Source: Escherichia phage vB_EcoS_MM-1
Sequence record: PV577657
Length of the DNA: 64,000 bases
Direction: 5' to 3' (one strand)
The first letter of the stretch is position 1; each line of letters opens with the position of its first letter. The position numbers and the translations under genes were made by a program. Below are positions 4,233 through 39,944 of this stretch, one piece after another. Below the pieces are notes generated by a model, which worked only from the letters and a program-made list of their open reading frames with translations, did not search any database and had not been told where the DNA came from.

Positions 4233-4484
4233 TTACAATACAGCTTCCCATTTTTCGTTGCGTTGAACAACCTTTACAACATCGCCGGATTTAACGCGAA
4301 CGCTAAAAACGGGCTTGCCGTTGTTACTACGTTCATTTTCAGCGTATACCGCGTCGATTGTATCGAACGGCATAAGCGCCGCACCTTTAATACGTTCGGC
4401 CTTTCCGGTTAATTCATCCGTTTTAGTAACGAAAGGAATGAAGACGAATTGACCAACTTTCGGCGCGGTAATAACGTTTTGCAT
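4233..4484 (-). CDS. hypothetical protein
   Basis: 83-aa ORF. Confidence 0.45.
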   Translation of the reverse strand: MQNVITAPKVGQFVFIPFVTKTDELTGKAERIKGAALMPFDTIDAVYAENERSNNGKPVFSVRVKSGDVVKVVQRNEKWEAVL

Positions 4485-34899: not shown

Positions 34900-35074
34900 A
34901 TTTGGTTCCTCTCTCAAATTTATAGATATATTATACAGAGAATTTAGCATTCAAGCAATCAAATTTTTTAACTTTTTAGAGGAAAATCATAGGGCACTTA
35001 AGGGTAGCAGATAAGTGGGGAGGACCAAAATTTGTGACCCCACTAAAAATCCGGGGGCAATTTTTAAAGACCCC

Positions 35075-35103
35075 TTGACATTTTCGCTGGGGTAGTGTAA
35101 AGT
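35075..35103 (+). promoter_or_regulatory. sigma70-type promoter
   Basis: TTGACA, 17-bp spacer, TAAAGT; differs from the conserved early promoter motif. Confidence 0.5.
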
Positions 35104-35165
35104 ATATGTTATGGATGAGTGATCAAAGAGACACACATTTTCTATATACTAGGAGGTGTCAAAAT

Positions 35166-36155
35166 ATGACAGAAGAAGTAGCTAAGAGTCCTGAGACCGT
35201 CGCTAGCGTTGCAGCAGAACTGCACCGTCACGAGGAATCAGATAAGAAAAAGTGGGAGAAGGTCAGAGCCTACGAAGAAAAACATCGTGAACACGATGAT
35301 GAAGAAGAAGATGACGATGATGAACATTGTCATAAATATGGAAAACATAAAATGCAAGAACCAGTAAACGTATTCACTAGTGGCTTCCCTGGCCTACTGG
35401 GTGGTTACCCAGCAAACGCAGGTGCTTTCGGTGGTGAAGGTATGGGACTATTCGGAGCTATCCTAATCGGTGCTCTATTAACCGGCGGATTCGGTGGTTT
35501 CGGTGGATTCGGTGGACGTGGTGTAGTTGGTGAAGGTACCGCAGTTGATGCAGTACTTCAGAACCAAGATACCGCTAGTATTCTAGCAGCTATCAACACT
35601 ACTCGTACAGAGGCTAACCAGGGTACTGGAGCTGTTTTAAGCGCAGTTAACAATGGTTTTAGCCAGACAACCCAAAACCAGAGCCGTGATACTCAGTCTG
35701 TACTAACTACGATCTACGGTACAGATGCTAATCTGTCTAATCAGATCTGCCAGGAAACTCGCAACGTTATTCAGGGTCAGTTCGATCTTTCTCGCCAGAT
35801 TGATCAATCTTTCGCAGCTAACCAGATAGCTCGTGCACAAGATAAGTTTGATTCTGCACAGATCGCTTTCCAGCAGACTTTACAAACTAATAACCAGTTT
35901 GCCGCTGTTCAGGCTCAGATGTGTGCTAACCAGAACTCTCTGGAACGTCAGATCGCTGAATGTTGCTGTGAACTTCAGACTGCGATCGCTGGTGTAACTA
36001 CTGCGCGTATCCAGGATGAGTTAGACGCATGTCGCCTACGTGAAGCAATCGCTGCGGGTAGCGGTGCTAACGGTCAGGTAATTAATCAAATCGCTTTAAG
36101 TCTTGGTGCTATCACTCAGACTCTGGCTGGTCTGCAGGCTAAACTGCCGGCTTAA
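35166..36155 (+). CDS. glycine-zipper membrane protein with acidic/His-rich N-terminus and Gln/Asn-rich C-terminus
   Basis: AGGAGG RBS; 'GLFGAILIGALLTGGFGGFGGFGGRG'; low-complexity Q/N/T C-terminal half with Cys. Confidence 0.55.
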   Translation: MTEEVAKSPETVASVAAELHRHEESDKKKWEKVRAYEEKHREHDDEEEDDDDEHCHKYGKHKMQEPVNVFTSGFPGLLGGYPANAGAFGGEGMGLFGAILIGALLTGGFGGFGGFGGRGVVGEGTAVDAVLQNQDTASILAAINTTRTEANQGTGAVLSAVNNGFSQTTQNQSRDTQSVLTTIYGTDANLSNQICQETRNVIQGQFDLSRQIDQSFAANQIARAQDKFDSAQIAFQQTLQTNNQFAAVQAQMCANQNSLERQIAECCCELQTAIAGVTTARIQDELDACRLREAIAAGSGANGQVINQIALSLGAITQTLAGLQAKLPA

Positions 36156-36176
36156 TATTAAGGGGAGGAGCCCATT

Positions 36177-36593
36177 ATGAGTAAATATGGTTTTGTAAAT
36201 AACGGACTTAATCAAAGTATGGGCTCCCAGCAGCCCATTCCGGGTCTGGATAACCCCTACTTACAACAGTTGCAACAGCGTTTAGCAGAAGCGCAACAGA
36301 TGCAGCAACAACTCCAGCAAAACCCTGGAAGTGTGAGTCCTATGCAAATGATGCAGCAAATGAGCGGGCAGTCGCAAATGCCTCAACAAATGCAGCAACA
36401 GGTGCCTCAGCAGCAAGTTCAGCAACAAACCCAACAACCGCAGGTTTCTGCGGAAGGACAGGCAGTACTAGCCCTTTTCGAAGACTTCGCAAAGACAGAG
36501 GATGGGAAACAGCTTGTATCACTTATGGGTAAGTTTAATAGCTTCTGCCAAAGCCAAGTTGCAAAAGCTCAAAATGGGGGTAGTAACTCCTAA
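36177..36593 (+). CDS. glutamine-rich protein
   Basis: 138 aa, long Q runs; GGGAGGAG RBS. Confidence 0.5.
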   Translation: MSKYGFVNNGLNQSMGSQQPIPGLDNPYLQQLQQRLAEAQQMQQQLQQNPGSVSPMQMMQQMSGQSQMPQQMQQQVPQQQVQQQTQQPQVSAEGQAVLALFEDFAKTEDGKQLVSLMGKFNSFCQSQVAKAQNGGSNS

Positions 36594-36602
36594 GGAGGAA
36601 AT

Positions 36603-36797
36603 ATGTGTTGCAGAAAATCTGTTTCGTGCTGCCCAGTGCCTGTAGCACGTTGTTGCTCTCCAGCAATGTTTACGCAAATACCGGCGTTCAATCCCTTTGC
36701 CTTTAAGCCTACTCTTATCCTGCCCCCTAGAGTAGATTTTCAGTCAAGATTGGCCTCCCGTATGGGTGGTTGCTGTACACCGAGAGTATGGTTCTAA
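36603..36797 (+). CDS. small protein with four Cys-Cys doublets
   Basis: 64 aa; AAGGAGGA RBS. Confidence 0.45.
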   Translation: MCCRKSVSCCPVPVARCCSPAMFTQIPAFNPFAFKPTLILPPRVDFQSRLASRMGGCCTPRVWF

Positions 36798-36806
36798 ACC
36801 AAAAAC

Positions 36807-36840
36807 AAAAGCCCCTGCCGAAAGGTAAGGGGCTTTTTCT
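36807..36840 (+). terminator. rho-independent terminator of plus-strand cassette
   Basis: gcccct / aggggc stem then TTTTTCTTTT. Confidence 0.7.
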
Positions 36841-36846
36841 TTTGCC

Positions 36847-36887
36847 TTAAATACAGAAAAGCCCGCGCTCTCGTAGGAAACGCGGGC
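36847..36887 (-). terminator. rho-independent terminator of SPFH gene
   Basis: gcccgcg / cgcgggc stem, U-run on minus strand. Confidence 0.6.
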
Positions 36888-36912
36888 TTGGTTCGAAGAT
36901 TACGTGTAACTA

Positions 36913-37860
36913 TTACTTGTTACGCATATCCATGATCATTTGACCATCGTAGCCAGTACCTACCACAGTCTGAGGTACACCACCTTGATACTTCTGAGCA
37001 CGGATCATTTCAACTTCCAGTTGTTTCCAACGAATCATTTCAGGAGTAATGGTACGTTGCAATGCGGCGTTAGCTTCAGCTTCTTTCTTAGCTGCGTACA
37101 GTTTAGCATCTGCGTCACGTTCATTAGCAATAGCTTGGTTGTTACGAGCTTCACGATCTGCTTCTGCTTGTTTAACTTTTTGCTGTGCTTCCTGTTCAAC
37201 GCGAGCAAGTTCAGCTTTCGCAGCATTAACTTGCTCTTCACGAACTTTGGTATTCTGTACCTGTTCCATGATTACTGGCGGCAAGGTAATATCCTGAAGG
37301 AATACCTGCTTAACTGTGTAACCATATGGGCGCGCATACTCTTCAACTTCCTGTTGAATTGCAGTTTGCAATTGAGCCTGAATTTTAGCATCAAATAAAT
37401 CTTGTGCTTTAGGTACAGACTTACCAAACTCACGAATAGTAGACAGTAATTTTTCAGTTACATACTTGTCTAGTGCCTGATCCTGAGTACCTGCGTTAAT
37501 ACGGTTAATCGGTGCTTTAGAACCATCAAACTGCAACATAACAGTCAGGTCAACAGTGGATTTAAACTTATCCTGGCTAGGAACCTGAAGTTTATCTAAT
37601 TTTACAGCAATATCTTTTGTACTAAAAGTATCGAAAGATGCAAACGGGTTTACAAGATGGAAGCCCGGCAATACTGGATTAGGGTCTACTTTACCCAGGA
37701 ATGTTTGGGTTTTAACCGTACCATCAGAAACAATAGTATATGAATTAAAAGCTAGGATTAAACCTGCTAAACCAACTACAGCACCAATACCCCAACGTTT
37801 AATAGTACGAATTACTTTCTGCTCAGAAGTCAGTTCTTTCATATTTTTAGTAGCAAACAT
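36913..37860 (-). CDS. SPFH/Band-7 (stomatin/prohibitin-like) membrane protein
   Basis: N-terminal TM, SPFH-like core, C-terminal Ala/Glu/Gln-rich coiled coil. Confidence 0.6.
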   Translation of the reverse strand: MFATKNMKELTSEQKVIRTIKRWGIGAVVGLAGLILAFNSYTIVSDGTVKTQTFLGKVDPNPVLPGFHLVNPFASFDTFSTKDIAVKLDKLQVPSQDKFKSTVDLTVMLQFDGSKAPINRINAGTQDQALDKYVTEKLLSTIREFGKSVPKAQDLFDAKIQAQLQTAIQQEVEEYARPYGYTVKQVFLQDITLPPVIMEQVQNTKVREEQVNAAKAELARVEQEAQQKVKQAEADREARNNQAIANERDADAKLYAAKKEAEANAALQRTITPEMIRWKQLEVEMIRAQKYQGGVPQTVVGTGYDGQMIMDMRNK

Positions 37861-37969: not shown

Positions 37970-38803
37970 TTTAAGTATTTTTAAGAACTCTCGTAAAAAC
38001 TCTTAAAAATACAGACGATACCGGGAGAGTCATAAGTCTCACTCATTAAGTATTTCAAGACAAAATACAGTAACGTCTATTATTTTCCAGTTTAAGTCAG
38101 GGTGACTTAGTGGTTATGTCCTGCGGTATATTGAGGACTCGGTTAGGCTTGGGGTCATGACTTCCCACCTTTTGCTGCTACTCAACAGGAGTTATCGCGA
38201 ATTACCTGTGCTATTGTGCACCATTAGTGACATCTCTCATGTCAGCATTTCCCACTTTGTGGATAGCTTGAAAAACTACTCCGATATGGAGAAAGAACTT
38301 CACTATCCTAGAATACCTTCTAAAGTTCTTCTTTAGCCTGGACATAGTTAAATCGTAATAAAACTATTCAGCAGACTGGTTGGTTAGTCTGGAACCAACT
38401 ACCGCGTGGTTTAGGCAGTGCGCAACTAACCTCGGAAGCTTTTATGTTAAAAGCATCAGTTATCCAGTTCTTACCGACCGTAGGATTCGAACCTACATCT
38501 TCCACCAGTTACGGCTTGATAATACCAATTATACTAGGACGGCAGTGTTACTACATAAGTGATTTCCACACCCCACTATTTATAAATCAGAGAAGAGTTT
38601 AGGGGAGAGGTTTCAGACGCCTCATTTTACACGTTCTAGCCACTAACCGGGATTGCCGCCCCCTGTGTACTAGTTTTACAACTAACCCACCGACTCTATT
38701 CAATGCGCTCCGGTTGGGATTCTGCACTCAGCGTAATCGGCTCGCTGTTCCCTAATTTATGAATATATTATACAGAATTTATAAGCATTTAGCAAATGAA
38801 TTT

Positions 38804-39476: not shown

Positions 39477-39944
39477 TTAAGTTTTAGTGACAACAGGTTT
39501 ATAGAATGTATGTCCCTTAATCTTAGTTGTTTTCTTAAACTTCTTTGTCCAGTAAGGTTTATCTTTACCACTATGGAAGTATAGTGCTCCATATGTAGGA
39601 TCTTGTGGTAAATCAACGTAGTATATCACTCTAGCTAAATTCTTAGCGGTTTGCCAAGCCTCATCAGTTTTATCAACTTTTGGTCTCTTAGATACCCAAG
39701 AGAACTGGTTAGACTGATATACTACTTTACAGTAGGAATCTGGGAATTTACCGGAGTTTACACGGTTTTTAGTAACATGTGCAATCGCCGTCATTCCCTT
39801 TATGCCCTCACCACGACTTTCGAAATAGATATTTTTAGCAATGCAATCTATTTCTTTTGCATCGTGCGATGCCTGACTACTAAAGCTGAAGGTAAGGGCA
39901 GCTACTAAAAGCAAAGCTGCCTTCATTCTTTTTACTCCTGCCAA
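39477..39944 (-). CDS. secreted SleB-like cell-wall hydrolase
   Basis: signal peptide; 'AIAHVTKNRVNSGKFP', 'QFSWVS', 'GALYFH', 'PYW' match SleB/Hydrolase_2 pattern. Confidence 0.55.
   Translation of the reverse strand: MAGVKRMKAALLLVAALTFSFSSQASHDAKEIDCIAKNIYFESRGEGIKGMTAIAHVTKNRVNSGKFPDSYCKVVYQSNQFSWVSKRPKVDKTDEAWQTAKNLARVIYYVDLPQDPTYGALYFHSGKDKPYWTKKFKKTTKIKGHTFYKPVVTKT

What the first reader, a model, noticed from the sequence alone, without database searches (positions are those of the whole stretch)
35060..36900. Plus-strand three-gene cassette of low-complexity proteins embedded in the minus-strand tRNA region
Three plus-strand genes (35166-36797) sit inside an otherwise minus-strand region. 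They have their own sigma70-type promoter (TTGACA-17-TAAAGT) instead of the conserved early promoter, strong RBSs and a dedicated terminator. The products are a 329-aa protein with an acidic/His-rich N-terminus, a GGFGGFGGFGG glycine-zipper membrane segment and a Q/N-rich C-terminus; a 138-aa polyglutamine protein; and a 64-aa peptide with four Cys-Cys doublets. The cassette converges on an SPFH/Band-7 gene (36913-37860). I recognise no characterised phage function with this combination, so it looks like a self-contained accessory module, possibly membrane-targeting.
Basis: partly seen in the sequence, partly recalled or inferred. Interest (0 to 1): 0.75.

Follow-up and report, generated by a model that had tools for sequence, protein, structure and literature searches.

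The report
Mobile three-gene phage accessory operon
A real, self-contained three-gene operon in a T5-like phage, often lost and also found in unrelated phages, encodes a probably membrane-anchored rod-shaped protein with an invariant triple-cysteine motif, a glutamine-rich partner and a small cysteine-doublet peptide that gene finders usually miss; its function is unknown.

Summary
Three plus-strand genes (35166-36155, 36177-36593, 36603-36797) have their own conserved sigma-70 promoter, strong ribosome-binding sites and a terminator, inside a minus-strand tRNA region of a T5-like phage. It is not a new observation: GenBank AJ604531 (2004) already annotates the promoter (P12), the three ORFs and the terminator as hypothetical.

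All three genes are under purifying selection, including the 64-aa ORF that most annotations omit. About half of T5-like genomes have lost the cassette through independent deletions.

The same triplet sits in an N4-like contig, a lambdoid contig (between the Q antiterminator and the lysis genes), a high-GC Pseudomonas phage and further contigs.

The 329-aa protein belongs to a large uncharacterised phage superfamily. Its marks are a Gly-rich hydrophobic anchor, a roughly 190-residue single helix (about 28 nm) and a near-invariant CCC motif.

No characterised family matches in Pfam, NCBIfam, PADLOC, PHROGs or the PDB. It is not the phage's lysis system and is not tied to the neighbouring SPFH gene.

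Best model: a moron-type accessory operon building a membrane-anchored, cysteine/histidine-linked rod complex. The biological role is unresolved. Interest is moderate.

The parts
35059..35103 (+). Promoter (P12 / T5P21): AT-rich upstream element AATTTTTAAAGA, -35 TTGACA (35075-80), 17-nt spacer, -10 TAAAGT (35098-35103)
   Evidence: All three elements are conserved in relatives with only 36-43% protein identity.
35151..35156 (+). Ribosome-binding site AGGAGG of gene 1
   Evidence: annotated in AJ604531.
35166..36155 (+). Gene 1 (329 aa; T5.077-type, PHROG 8119): rod protein with Gly-rich hydrophobic anchor and CCC motif
   Evidence: pN/pS is 0.22. The upstream ATG at 35106 lies at or before the predicted transcription start and is not used by the annotators.
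35199..35297 (+). Gene 1 residues 12-44: N-terminal helix (motif ELxxHExxDKK), found only in versions that also carry genes 2 and 3
   Evidence: AlphaFold2 pLDDT above 90; alignment; co-occurrence.
35298..35438 (+). Gene 1 residues 45-91: variable acidic/His-rich disordered stretch ending in the conserved KMQEPVNVFTNGFPG
35439..35519 (+). Gene 1 residues 92-118: uncharged Gly-rich hydrophobic segment GMGLFGAILIGALLTGGFGGFGGFGG (putative membrane anchor)
   Evidence: Kyte-Doolittle 19-residue maximum 1.72; present in 82 of 107 family members.
35571..36143 (+). Gene 1 residues 136-326: one continuous predicted helix (about 190 aa, about 28 nm). The C-terminal 90 residues are the most constrained part.
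   Evidence: pLDDT above 90 for residues 200-260. pN/pS is 0.13 for residues 241-329.
35961..35969 (+). Codons for the invariant Cys266-Cys267-Cys268 (motif AECCCELQ)
   Evidence: Invariant in A1; present in 81 of 107 superfamily members.
36162..36169 (+). Ribosome-binding site GGGGAGGA of gene 2
36177..36593 (+). Gene 2 (138 aa; PHROG 7894): conserved Q-rich N-terminal helix, variable Q/P linker, conserved C-terminal module (LFE(D/E)FAKTEDGKQLV..GKFN.FCQS)
   Evidence: pN/pS is 0.25.
36592..36598 (+). Ribosome-binding site AAGGAGG of gene 3
   Evidence: A strong Shine-Dalgarno sequence precedes the gene-3 homolog in all 7 lineages.
36603..36797 (+). Gene 3 (64 aa): basic, Pro-rich peptide starting MCC, with four Cys-Cys doublets and no signal peptide
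   Evidence: It is the only stop-free frame. pN/pS is 0.38 against about 1 in the other sense frames, and all 8 Cys are invariant. Positional homologs occur in all 7 lineages.
36807..36843 (+). Intrinsic terminator of the cassette (GC stem 36811-36833 plus U-run), flanked by an A-run so potentially bidirectional ('ter1')
   Evidence: dG -22.8 kcal/mol, z = -4.6; annotated in AJ604531 and BB1.

Best explanation
This is an autonomous accessory ('moron'-type) operon. It is transcribed by host sigma-70 RNA polymerase from its own promoter and ends at its own terminator.

Gene 1 makes a protein that most likely inserts into the cytoplasmic membrane through a Gly-rich hydrophobic segment. It carries a roughly 28-nm alpha-helical rod that must oligomerise. 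The invariant CCC motif would link the chains or bind a metal at the oligomer interface.

Gene 2 (two conserved helical ends joined by a Q/P linker) and gene 3 (a basic Pro-rich peptide with Cys doublets) are obligate partners of the version of gene 1 that has the extra N-terminal helix and His/acidic region. The three together would form a Cys/His-linked complex at the membrane of the infected cell.

The operon is dispensable for growth, is not the lysis machinery, and probably gives a conditional advantage. Envelope-level exclusion of competing phages, or protection against a host response, is the most likely class of role.

Shown: genes real and constrained; own conserved promoter and terminator; repeated loss; transfer as a unit among unrelated phages; superfamily with anchor + rod + CCC; strict co-occurrence of genes 2 and 3 with the N-terminal extension.

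Inferred: membrane insertion, oligomerisation, complex formation, the role of the cysteines, and the biological role.
For: Real, constrained genes: pN/pS is 0.22, 0.25 and 0.38 for genes 1, 2 and 3. A strong Shine-Dalgarno sequence precedes every gene in 7 lineages.

Autonomous unit: the promoter elements are conserved beyond the level of the coding sequence, and the terminator is strong. In the window the cassette is GC-richer than its flanks (0.47 against 0.39).

Accessory: only 215 of 443 related records cover the locus. Deletion end-points differ: rutana keeps the last codons of ORF64, MSP1 keeps its C-terminal half, and AKFV33 keeps only the second hairpin.

Mobile: the same triplet occurs in these backbones.
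- An N4-like contig with a virion RNA polymerase.
- A lambdoid contig, between the Q antiterminator and holin/lysozyme/Rz on the opposite strand.
- Pseudomonas phage RSP, next to its terminase gene.
- Contigs L009, L010 and L027.

Architecture: the AlphaFold2 model from a 107-sequence alignment has pLDDT 74, with a helix at 12-44, a short helix inside the hydrophobic segment, and a single helix at 136-326. The uncharged 26-residue Gly-rich core has a Kyte-Doolittle maximum of 1.72.

Superfamily: 186 clusters match at E <= 1e-3. CCC is present in 81 of 107 members and the anchor in 82 of 107. hhalign to eiAU gp08 gives 97.8% probability, E = 1e-12.

Partner logic: all 7 lineages with the N-terminal extension carry genes 2 and 3. 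None of the relatives with a short N-terminus does.

Cys/His theme: T1-like one-gene versions end in PTPPTPPTGCCGC. His-rich stretches recur either fused to gene 1 or in the next gene.

Not lysis: holin, endolysin and Rz-like spanins are annotated elsewhere in the 100%-identical phage.
Against: - No experiment, and no homology to any characterised protein, supports a role.
- The hydrophobic segment is marginal and very Gly-rich. AlphaFold2 gives it low confidence, and the charge bias around it is weak. Membrane insertion and topology are therefore unproven.
- The rod shows no significant heptad or hendecad hydrophobic periodicity.
- Complex formation among the three proteins rests on co-occurrence alone.
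- Cys parity over the family (24 even, 27 odd) does not settle whether the rod is cytoplasmic or periplasmic.
- Distant relatives sit next to lateral tail-fibre genes. That could point to a virion-related role instead.
Confidence: 0.5

Rival explanations
1. Periplasm-spanning device. Gene 1 protein would be a type II inner-membrane protein (N-terminus in, rod out). Its 28-nm disulfide-stapled coiled coil would reach the outer membrane, as an i-spanin or TonB does. There it would block a receptor or DNA-entry route (superinfection exclusion), or modulate lysis.
For: - The order N-terminal charged domain, hydrophobic segment, long helix matches i-spanin and T4-holin-type layouts. The rod length of about 28 nm is comparable to the width of the periplasm (the periplasm width is from general knowledge).
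- The cysteines are conserved.
- The highly charged 90-residue N-terminus is unlikely to be translocated.
- Distant relatives lie near receptor-binding fibre genes, where exclusion genes often sit (the general principle is from knowledge of llp and cor).
- Two distant relatives lie close to M15-type peptidase genes.
Against: - Genes 2 and 3 have no signal peptide or lipobox, yet they are strictly co-inherited.
- No lipoprotein ORF is embedded in or adjacent to gene 1.
- There is no even-number Cys bias, which would be expected for DsbA substrates.
- Basic residues tend to follow rather than precede the anchor in short-N-terminus members.
- The phage already has Rz-like spanins.
- Cassette-less T5-like phages exist as isolated phages.
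Confidence: 0.2
2. Cytoplasmic metal- or thiol-based host-takeover or counter-defence module. The His-rich region, the CCC motif and the Cys-doublet peptide would bind Zn, Cu, Ni or an Fe-S cluster, or would trap a host thiol-dependent factor. The hydrophobic segment would serve only to tether the complex.
For: - His-rich and acidic stretches, CCC and CC doublets recur across lineages.
- No export signals are present on genes 2 and 3.
- Cys parity is not biased to even numbers.
- The promoter is of the early type.
- The cassette sits in moron slots of several phage types.
Against: There is no match to any metal-binding, anti-defence or defence family. No metal-binding spacing motif (CxxC or HxH arrays) is conserved beyond the doublets. 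This remains purely compositional reasoning.
Confidence: 0.15
3. Virion-associated or fibre-associated component. The rod would be an optional structural fibre, or an ejected membrane-piercing protein, as suggested by distant relatives encoded directly after lateral tail-fibre genes.
For: 132 cultured siphophages (T1-like, Seuratvirus, eiAU-like and others) encode the relative immediately after the lateral tail-fibre gene. A long rod with a hydrophobic Gly-rich end recalls fusogenic tail proteins (general knowledge).
Against: - In the window the cassette lies in the early/tRNA region, under a promoter that T5-family records annotate as early.
- In the lambdoid contig it lies between Q and the lysis genes on the opposite strand. 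In the N4-like contig it lies among minus-strand genes beside the end of the virion RNA polymerase gene.
- About half of T5-like phages lack it and still exist as isolated phages.
- I found no report of it among virion proteins, and no paper in the held library mentions T5.077-T5.080.
Confidence: 0.08
4. Non-functional low-complexity ORFs, or an annotation artefact, at least for the 64-aa ORF.
For: Gene finders rarely call ORF64: one cluster of 15 members, and no feature is annotated under most tblastn hits. The composition is biased in Q, G, C and P.
Against: Purifying selection acts in the annotated frames only. Position, ribosome-binding site and the MCC/CC pattern are kept across lineages with very low sequence identity and very different GC content.
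Confidence: 0.02

Closest known systems
Phage 'morons' (autonomous accessory transcription units, e.g. lambda bor/lom, stx between Q and S in Stx phages)
   Same: - It has its own promoter and terminator and is oriented against the surrounding genes.
- It is GC-richer than its flanks.
- Its presence is variable, and it occurs in unrelated phage backbones.
- One copy sits exactly in the Q-to-lysis slot of a lambdoid contig.
   Different: Most copies are in virulent phages (T5-like, N4-like), so expression from a prophage is not the rule. The products have no relatives among known moron products.
Two-component spanins (Rz/Rz1-type i-spanin and o-spanin)
   Same: - Gene 1 has a hydrophobic segment followed by a long helical, Cys-containing domain.
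- A small Pro-rich, Cys-containing partner is encoded close by.
- The rod length is similar to the width of the periplasm.
   Different: - The small partner has no lipoprotein signal.
- There is no Pfam or PHROG spanin hit.
- The phage has separate Rz-like spanins.
- The cassette is dispensable.
- There is an extra 90-residue N-terminal domain and a third protein.
Superinfection-exclusion membrane proteins of virulent phages (T5 Llp, T1/phi80 Cor, T4 Imm and Sp)
   Same: They are small accessory, non-essential, envelope-located products. They are often encoded near receptor-binding genes, which is where the distant relatives of gene 1 sit.
   Different: There is no sequence similarity. Llp and Cor are lipoproteins, and none of them is a long rod with partner peptides. 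The function was not tested here.
PHROGs 8119, 9288, 16490 and 7894 (uncharacterised phage protein families)
   Same: Gene 1 is a full-length member of PHROG 8119 (E = 1e-203) and gene 2 of PHROG 7894 (E = 1e-79). Distant relatives hit 8119, 9288 and 16490 together.
   Different: These families carry no functional annotation. Their union into one superfamily with anchor + rod + CCC, and the link to genes 2 and 3, is described here.
Cysteine-doublet / proline-rich cross-linking or metal-binding peptides (keratin-associated proteins, protamines, metallothioneins): analogy only
   Same: Gene 3 peptides are basic, Pro-rich and built around CC doublets (CC-P, CC-S-P, CC-T-P). Gene 1 is a long rod with Gly-Phe loops, like an intermediate-filament protein. 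The only fold-search matches are vimentin rods.
   Different: The vimentin matches are not significant (E about 3). There is no homology, and this is a resemblance recalled from general knowledge. The bacterial cytoplasm is reducing.

Membership tests
Moron-type autonomous accessory operon | Own promoter and own terminator, independent of the surrounding transcription units | tested here: met
   The promoter is at 35075-35103 and is conserved across divergent relatives. The terminator has dG -22.8 kcal/mol, z = -4.6. The cassette is on the opposite strand to its neighbours.
Moron-type autonomous accessory operon | Dispensable, with variable presence among close relatives | tested here: met
   Only 215 of 443 related records cover the locus. 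Independent deletions have different end-points.
Moron-type autonomous accessory operon | Occurs in unrelated phage genomes as a unit; composition differs from the flanks | tested here: met
   The triplet occurs in T5-like, N4-like, lambdoid and Pseudomonas RSP-type backbones and in L027. GC content is 0.47 against 0.39 in the window.
Two-component spanin (i-spanin + o-spanin) | i-spanin: N-terminal transmembrane domain with a periplasmic coiled-coil domain | tested here: inconclusive
   A hydrophobic segment followed by a 190-residue helix is present. Topology cannot be decided from charge bias or Cys parity.
Two-component spanin (i-spanin + o-spanin) | o-spanin: small outer-membrane lipoprotein with a signal peptide and lipobox Cys | tested here: not met
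   The gene 3 peptide has no hydrophobic signal sequence (Kyte-Doolittle maximum 0.97) and starts MCC. No lipobox ORF is embedded in gene 1.
Two-component spanin (i-spanin + o-spanin) | Sequence membership or lysis-cassette location; required for lysis | tested here: not met
   There is no Phage_lysis or spanin hit. Rz-like spanins, holin and endolysin are annotated about 11-14 kb away. The cassette is often absent.
Class III (T4 T-type) holin | Match to holin families; adjacency to the endolysin gene | tested here: not met
   There is no Pfam or PHROG holin hit. The phage's holin and endolysin are elsewhere.
SPFH-associated operon partners (e.g. NfeD-SPFH pairs) | Co-transcription and co-occurrence with the SPFH gene; NfeD-type domain | tested here: not met
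   The SPFH gene is convergent, not co-transcribed. It is retained when the cassette is deleted. It is absent beside the cassette in non-T5 contexts. There is no NfeD hit.
Glycine-zipper membrane/lipoprotein families (Pfam Gly-zipper_Omp, Gly-zipper_YMGG, Rick_17kDa_Anti) | Match to the family HMM | tested here: not met
   No such hit appears even at E <= 1. Only a sub-threshold RIFIN match is found: Pfam E = 0.62 and NCBIfam TIGR01477 E = 0.007 at 16.2 bits against a 177-bit cut-off.
Known anti-phage defence or named bacterial families | Match to PADLOC or NCBIfam models | tested here: not met
   No hits for any of the three proteins.
RiPP precursor peptide (for gene 3) | Adjacent modifying enzyme(s) and a leader/core organisation | tested here: not met
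   No enzyme-like gene lies in the cassette or is conserved beside it in any lineage.
Metal-binding Cys/His peptides (metallothionein-like) | Stoichiometric metal binding through clustered Cys/His | not testable with these tools
   Only composition is available: 8 Cys in 64 aa, CCC, and His-rich stretches.
Uncharacterised phage superfamily (PHROG 8119/9288/16490) defined here | Gly-rich hydrophobic segment, then a helical region of about 190 residues, then (A/x)(E/x)CCC(E/D), then a conserved C-terminal helix | tested here: met

The most novel reading that the evidence does not exclude
The triplet is a previously unrecognised kind of phage-encoded membrane machine. A long oligomeric rod would be stapled through an invariant triple cysteine and loaded, through a dedicated adaptor, with a cysteine-doublet peptide. 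Lytic and temperate phages of Gammaproteobacteria would trade it as a cassette, to exclude competitors or to neutralise an envelope-linked host defence by a mechanism unrelated to known exclusion, spanin or anti-defence proteins. The one-gene relatives beside tail-fibre genes would be simpler forms of the same device.
Probability: 0.3. Interest if true: 0.75.

Novelty: new member of a known kind. Interest (0 to 1): 0.5.

Why it matters
T5 is a classical model phage, yet this conserved early operon (by numbering, T5.077-T5.079) has had no function assigned for 20 years. I found no paper in the held library that mentions it.

The analysis changes what can be tested:
- The operon is a mobile unit shared by T5-like, N4-like, lambdoid and Pseudomonas phages.
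- Its large protein anchors a superfamily found in well over a hundred cultured enterobacterial phages and in 186 metagenomic clusters.
- A widely unannotated 64-aa Cys-doublet peptide is a genuine gene.

Together these turn a 'hypothetical protein' block into a defined target. Natural cassette-plus and cassette-minus phage pairs already exist (for example in the BASEL collection) for direct phenotypic comparison.

If the role is competitor exclusion or counter-defence, it would add a new protein class to phage-phage and phage-host conflict. If the cysteines bind metal, it would be an unusual viral metalloprotein assembly.

The work also corrects a propagated mis-annotation of gene 2 as 'cAMP-dependent protein kinase catalytic subunit'.

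Tried and rejected
- HMM libraries: Pfam, PHROGs, NCBIfam and PADLOC scans of all three proteins gave nothing characterised. Only sub-threshold RIFIN and assorted low-complexity hits appeared.
- PDB sequences: a profile search found nothing below E = 0.86.
- Structure prediction with the shallow alignment gave pLDDT 50 and was unusable. The deeper alignment gave a single-helix model.
- Fold search: Foldseek on that model returned only non-significant vimentin rods, so further fold searches were not run.
- Heptad or hendecad periodicity of the rod was not significant against shuffles.
- Lysis hypothesis: rejected as the primary role, because holin, endolysin and spanins are annotated elsewhere and the eiAU relative is not in that phage's lysis cassette. 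The closeness of two distant relatives to M15 peptidase genes did not generalise.
- Link to the SPFH gene: rejected.
- Literature: searches for T5.077-T5.080, T5 tRNA-region deletions, and T5-like accessory or SPFH genes found no functional data.
- Collection scans: the viral-contig scan with the broad alignment failed because it had no conserved stretch. The scan with the close alignment returned only T5-like isolates.
- The lambdoid version was not found in complete E. coli genomes.
- Two long CCC-motif proteins (P0189, P0224) lie on contigs too short to interpret.
- Companion genes of the one-gene relatives have no Pfam assignment apart from DUF7841.


Full report
IDENTITY OF THE WINDOW AND STATUS OF THE OBSERVATION

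The region is 100% identical to Escherichia phage vB_EcoS_MM-2 and 97-99% identical to many Tequintavirus genomes. Eighteen minus-strand tRNA genes lie upstream and tRNA-Arg lies downstream. The flanking protein genes are also on the minus strand: a Toprim/primase-like gene upstream and an SPFH/Band 7 gene downstream (Pfam E = 2e-17).

The cassette is not new to the databases. GenBank AJ604531 ('Bacteriophage 5 tRNA gene region') annotates promoter P12, three ribosome-binding sites, 'ORF 327aa', 'ORF 138aa', 'ORF 64aa' and a bidirectional terminator ter1. The T5 record AY587007 annotates the promoter as early promoter T5P21. Notes in other records tie the flanking genes to T5.076 and T5.080 and gene 1 to YP_006905. 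By numbering, the three genes would then be T5.077-T5.079, which is an inference. No paper in the held library mentions these genes.

REGULATORY ELEMENTS

TTGACA-17-TAAAGT lies at 35075-35103. The scan finds no more promoter-like sites in the region than chance predicts. The site is nevertheless credible. Its -35, its -10 and an upstream AATTTTTAAAGA are invariant or nearly so, even in two contigs whose gene 1 proteins are only 36-43% identical to the window's, while the surrounding DNA has diverged.

The ATG at 35106 that would extend ORF1 lies at or before the expected transcription start, and no annotation uses it.

Each gene has a strong Shine-Dalgarno sequence. A GC-rich hairpin plus U-run follows gene 3 (dG -22.8 kcal/mol, z = -4.6). 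A second hairpin (36859-36889) terminates the convergent SPFH gene.

ARE THE GENES REAL?

Across eight or nine T5-like and Epseptimavirus loci, pN/pS is 0.22 for gene 1, 0.25 for gene 2 and 0.38 for gene 3. Within gene 1 the C-terminal 90 residues are the most constrained, at 0.13.

For gene 3 the annotated frame is the only stop-free one, and the other sense frames give ratios close to 1. All eight cysteines are invariant. Gene finders rarely call this ORF.

Even so, a positional homolog with its own Shine-Dalgarno sequence follows gene 2 in every lineage examined. These homologs are 49-91 aa long, basic, Pro- and aromatic-rich and almost free of acidic residues. Six of the seven start MCC (the lambdoid one starts MSCNCGC), and each has at least one further CC doublet.

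'Polyglutamine' overstates gene 2. It is 28% Gln with a longest run of 3. It has a conserved Q-rich N-terminal helix, a variable Q/P linker and a conserved C-terminal module with one conserved Cys.

ACCESSORY AND MOBILE

A query spanning both flanking genes matches 443 phage records, but only 215 cover at least 80% of it. Cassette-less Tequintavirus and Epseptimavirus genomes keep the flanks. The deletion end-points differ:
- Rutana retains the last codons of ORF64 and both hairpins.
- MSP1 retains the C-terminal half of ORF64 beside a homing endonuclease.
- AKFV33 retains only the second hairpin.

The cassette is therefore ancestral in this subfamily and has been lost repeatedly.

The same three-gene order also occurs elsewhere:
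- On a contig with an N4-type virion RNA polymerase.
- On a lambdoid contig, in reverse orientation between the Q antiterminator and holin-lysozyme-Rz.
- In the high-GC Pseudomonas phage RSP, next to its terminase gene.
- On three further contigs.

In four of these lineages a small, divergently transcribed zinc-ribbon-like gene sits directly upstream. The T5-like phages lack it. The SPFH gene accompanies the cassette only in T5-like genomes and stays when the cassette is lost, so there is no evidence that the two work together.

THE LARGE PROTEIN

Word-indexed searches find only T5-like-sized contigs. An exhaustive profile search finds 186 clusters at E <= 1e-3. Most are 240-290 aa and align from the Gly-rich segment onward.

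In a 107-member alignment, 82 members have the Gly-rich uncharged hydrophobic segment and 81 have a CCC motif, typically AECCCE(L/I)(K/Q), about 190 residues further on.

Profile-profile comparison links the window protein to Edwardsiella phage eiAU gp08 (97.8% probability, E = 1e-12) and to a T1-like protein (96%). Relatives of eiAU gp08 occur in 132 cultured enterobacterial siphophages. In the three annotated records examined (eiAU, DanielBernoulli, CAjan) the gene directly follows the tail or lateral tail-fibre genes, and a similar four-gene block of unknown function follows it there and in Aeromonas phage phiWae15. The T1-like and Seuratvirus proteins end in a Pro-rich tail with a Cys doublet (PTPPTPPTGCCGC). 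The gene that follows often starts with a His-rich stretch.

With the deep alignment, AlphaFold2 (pLDDT 74) predicts four elements:
- a helix at 12-44;
- a disordered acidic/His region;
- a short helix inside the hydrophobic segment;
- one uninterrupted helix from 136 to 326.

A 190-residue helix is about 28 nm long and cannot be stable alone, so it implies an oligomeric rod. The fold search gives only non-significant vimentin rods.

PARTNER LOGIC AND TOPOLOGY

All seven lineages in which gene 1 carries the N-terminal helix and His/acidic extension also carry genes 2 and 3. None of the short-N-terminus relatives examined does. This is the strongest hint that the three products act together, and that genes 2 and 3 engage the N-terminal part or need it.

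Neither small protein has a signal peptide or lipobox. Charge bias around the anchor is weak, with slightly more Lys/Arg after it than before. The number of cysteines after the anchor shows no preference for even values (24 even, 27 odd). Together these lean towards a cytoplasm-facing assembly tethered to the membrane. They do not exclude an N-in/C-out rod crossing the periplasm.

WHAT IT IS NOT

It is not the lysis system. The identical phage has holin, endolysin and Rz-like spanins annotated 11-14 kb away, and gene 3 fails the o-spanin lipoprotein test. It matches no defence, anti-defence or named bacterial family. It is not junk, given the selection data.

VERDICT

As an observation, however, it was already in GenBank.

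What this analysis adds:
- the repeated-loss and horizontal-transfer pattern;
- the superfamily definition (anchor + rod + CCC);
- validation of the 64-aa Cys-doublet gene;
- the co-occurrence rule linking genes 2 and 3 to the N-terminal extension.

The most likely mechanism is a membrane-tethered, cysteine/histidine-linked rod complex that gives a conditional advantage. The actual role is unknown and needs the experiments listed under next steps.

I file it as a new, uncharacterised member of the known class of autonomous phage accessory operons. I put about a 30% chance on its mechanism proving to be of a new kind.

Noticed in passing
L007 3756-3911 (-), L026 4744-4917 (-), L027 4759-4914 (-), L005 about 4302-4445 (-): A small basic zinc-ribbon-like protein of about 50 aa (M.RRYCPxCG....CPECGxWFTK.R..Q.YC.P.CRQRK) is encoded divergently, directly upstream of the cassette, in four non-T5 lineages. 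It may be the cassette's regulator. No homolog is present in the window.
   Followed up: partly
window 36859-36889 (equivalent to L003 4263-4270): The T5 record AY587007 annotates 'major single-stranded nick 3, 32.6%' inside the left arm of the SPFH-gene terminator hairpin (GCCCGCGC in the window), immediately next to the cassette. One of T5's site-specific nicks therefore coincides with this convergent-terminator region.
   Followed up: no
window 36177-36593: Gene 2 is annotated 'cAMP-dependent protein kinase catalytic subunit' (kapc) in AY587007 and in several derived records. There is no kinase domain (Pfam finds nothing significant). This looks like a propagated low-complexity mis-annotation.
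   Followed up: yes
L015 2743-3273 (EscoHU1); L006 4149-4679 (MSP1): An HNH/homing endonuclease gene is inserted between the end of ORF64 and the SPFH gene in some relatives. In MSP1 it accompanies the deletion of most of the cassette, so homing endonucleases may drive the rearrangements at this locus.
   Followed up: no
L021 5572-7426; L047 4321-6166; L048 4306-6270; L022 4494-6441: In T1-like, Seuratvirus, eiAU-like and Aeromonas phages the one-gene relative heads a conserved four-gene block after the tail or lateral tail-fibre genes. The block is: rod protein; a 92-121-aa protein (His-rich N-terminus in eiAU and the T1-like phage); a roughly 170-aa protein; a roughly 85-aa protein. All are unannotated.
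   Followed up: partly
window 34987-35136 (-): A 49-aa minus-strand ORF annotated as a CDS in phage MM-2 overlaps the cassette promoter. It has no family hits and is probably spurious.
   Followed up: partly
window 35036-35093: Short GACCCC direct repeats and inverted repeats (ACCCCACTAAAAAT / ATTTTCGCTGGGGT) bracket the -35 element. They are conserved among T5-likes and could be an operator or an RNA structure.
   Followed up: partly
window about 37970-38750 (-): AJ604531 annotates a 785-nt 'RNAX, stable RNA with unknown functions' directly downstream of tRNA-Arg. ARAGORN finds no tRNA there, while MM-2 annotates a 'tRNA-OTHER'.
   Followed up: no
window 39477-39944 (-): This is a SleB-type cell-wall hydrolase gene with an apparent signal peptide, annotated as a second 'endolysin' or 'spore cortex-lytic enzyme'. 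It is separate from the main lysis cassette, and a Hydrolase_2 gene also lies near the cassette in the divergent contig L010.
   Followed up: no
P0189 (L024 1083-2363), P0224 (L025 515-2572): Two long proteins (426 and 685 aa) lack the Gly-rich anchor but share the extended motif ECCCE(L/V)K..I......(A/T)R(L/I)RDEL near their C-termini. They lie on short metagenomic contigs of unknown origin.
   Followed up: partly
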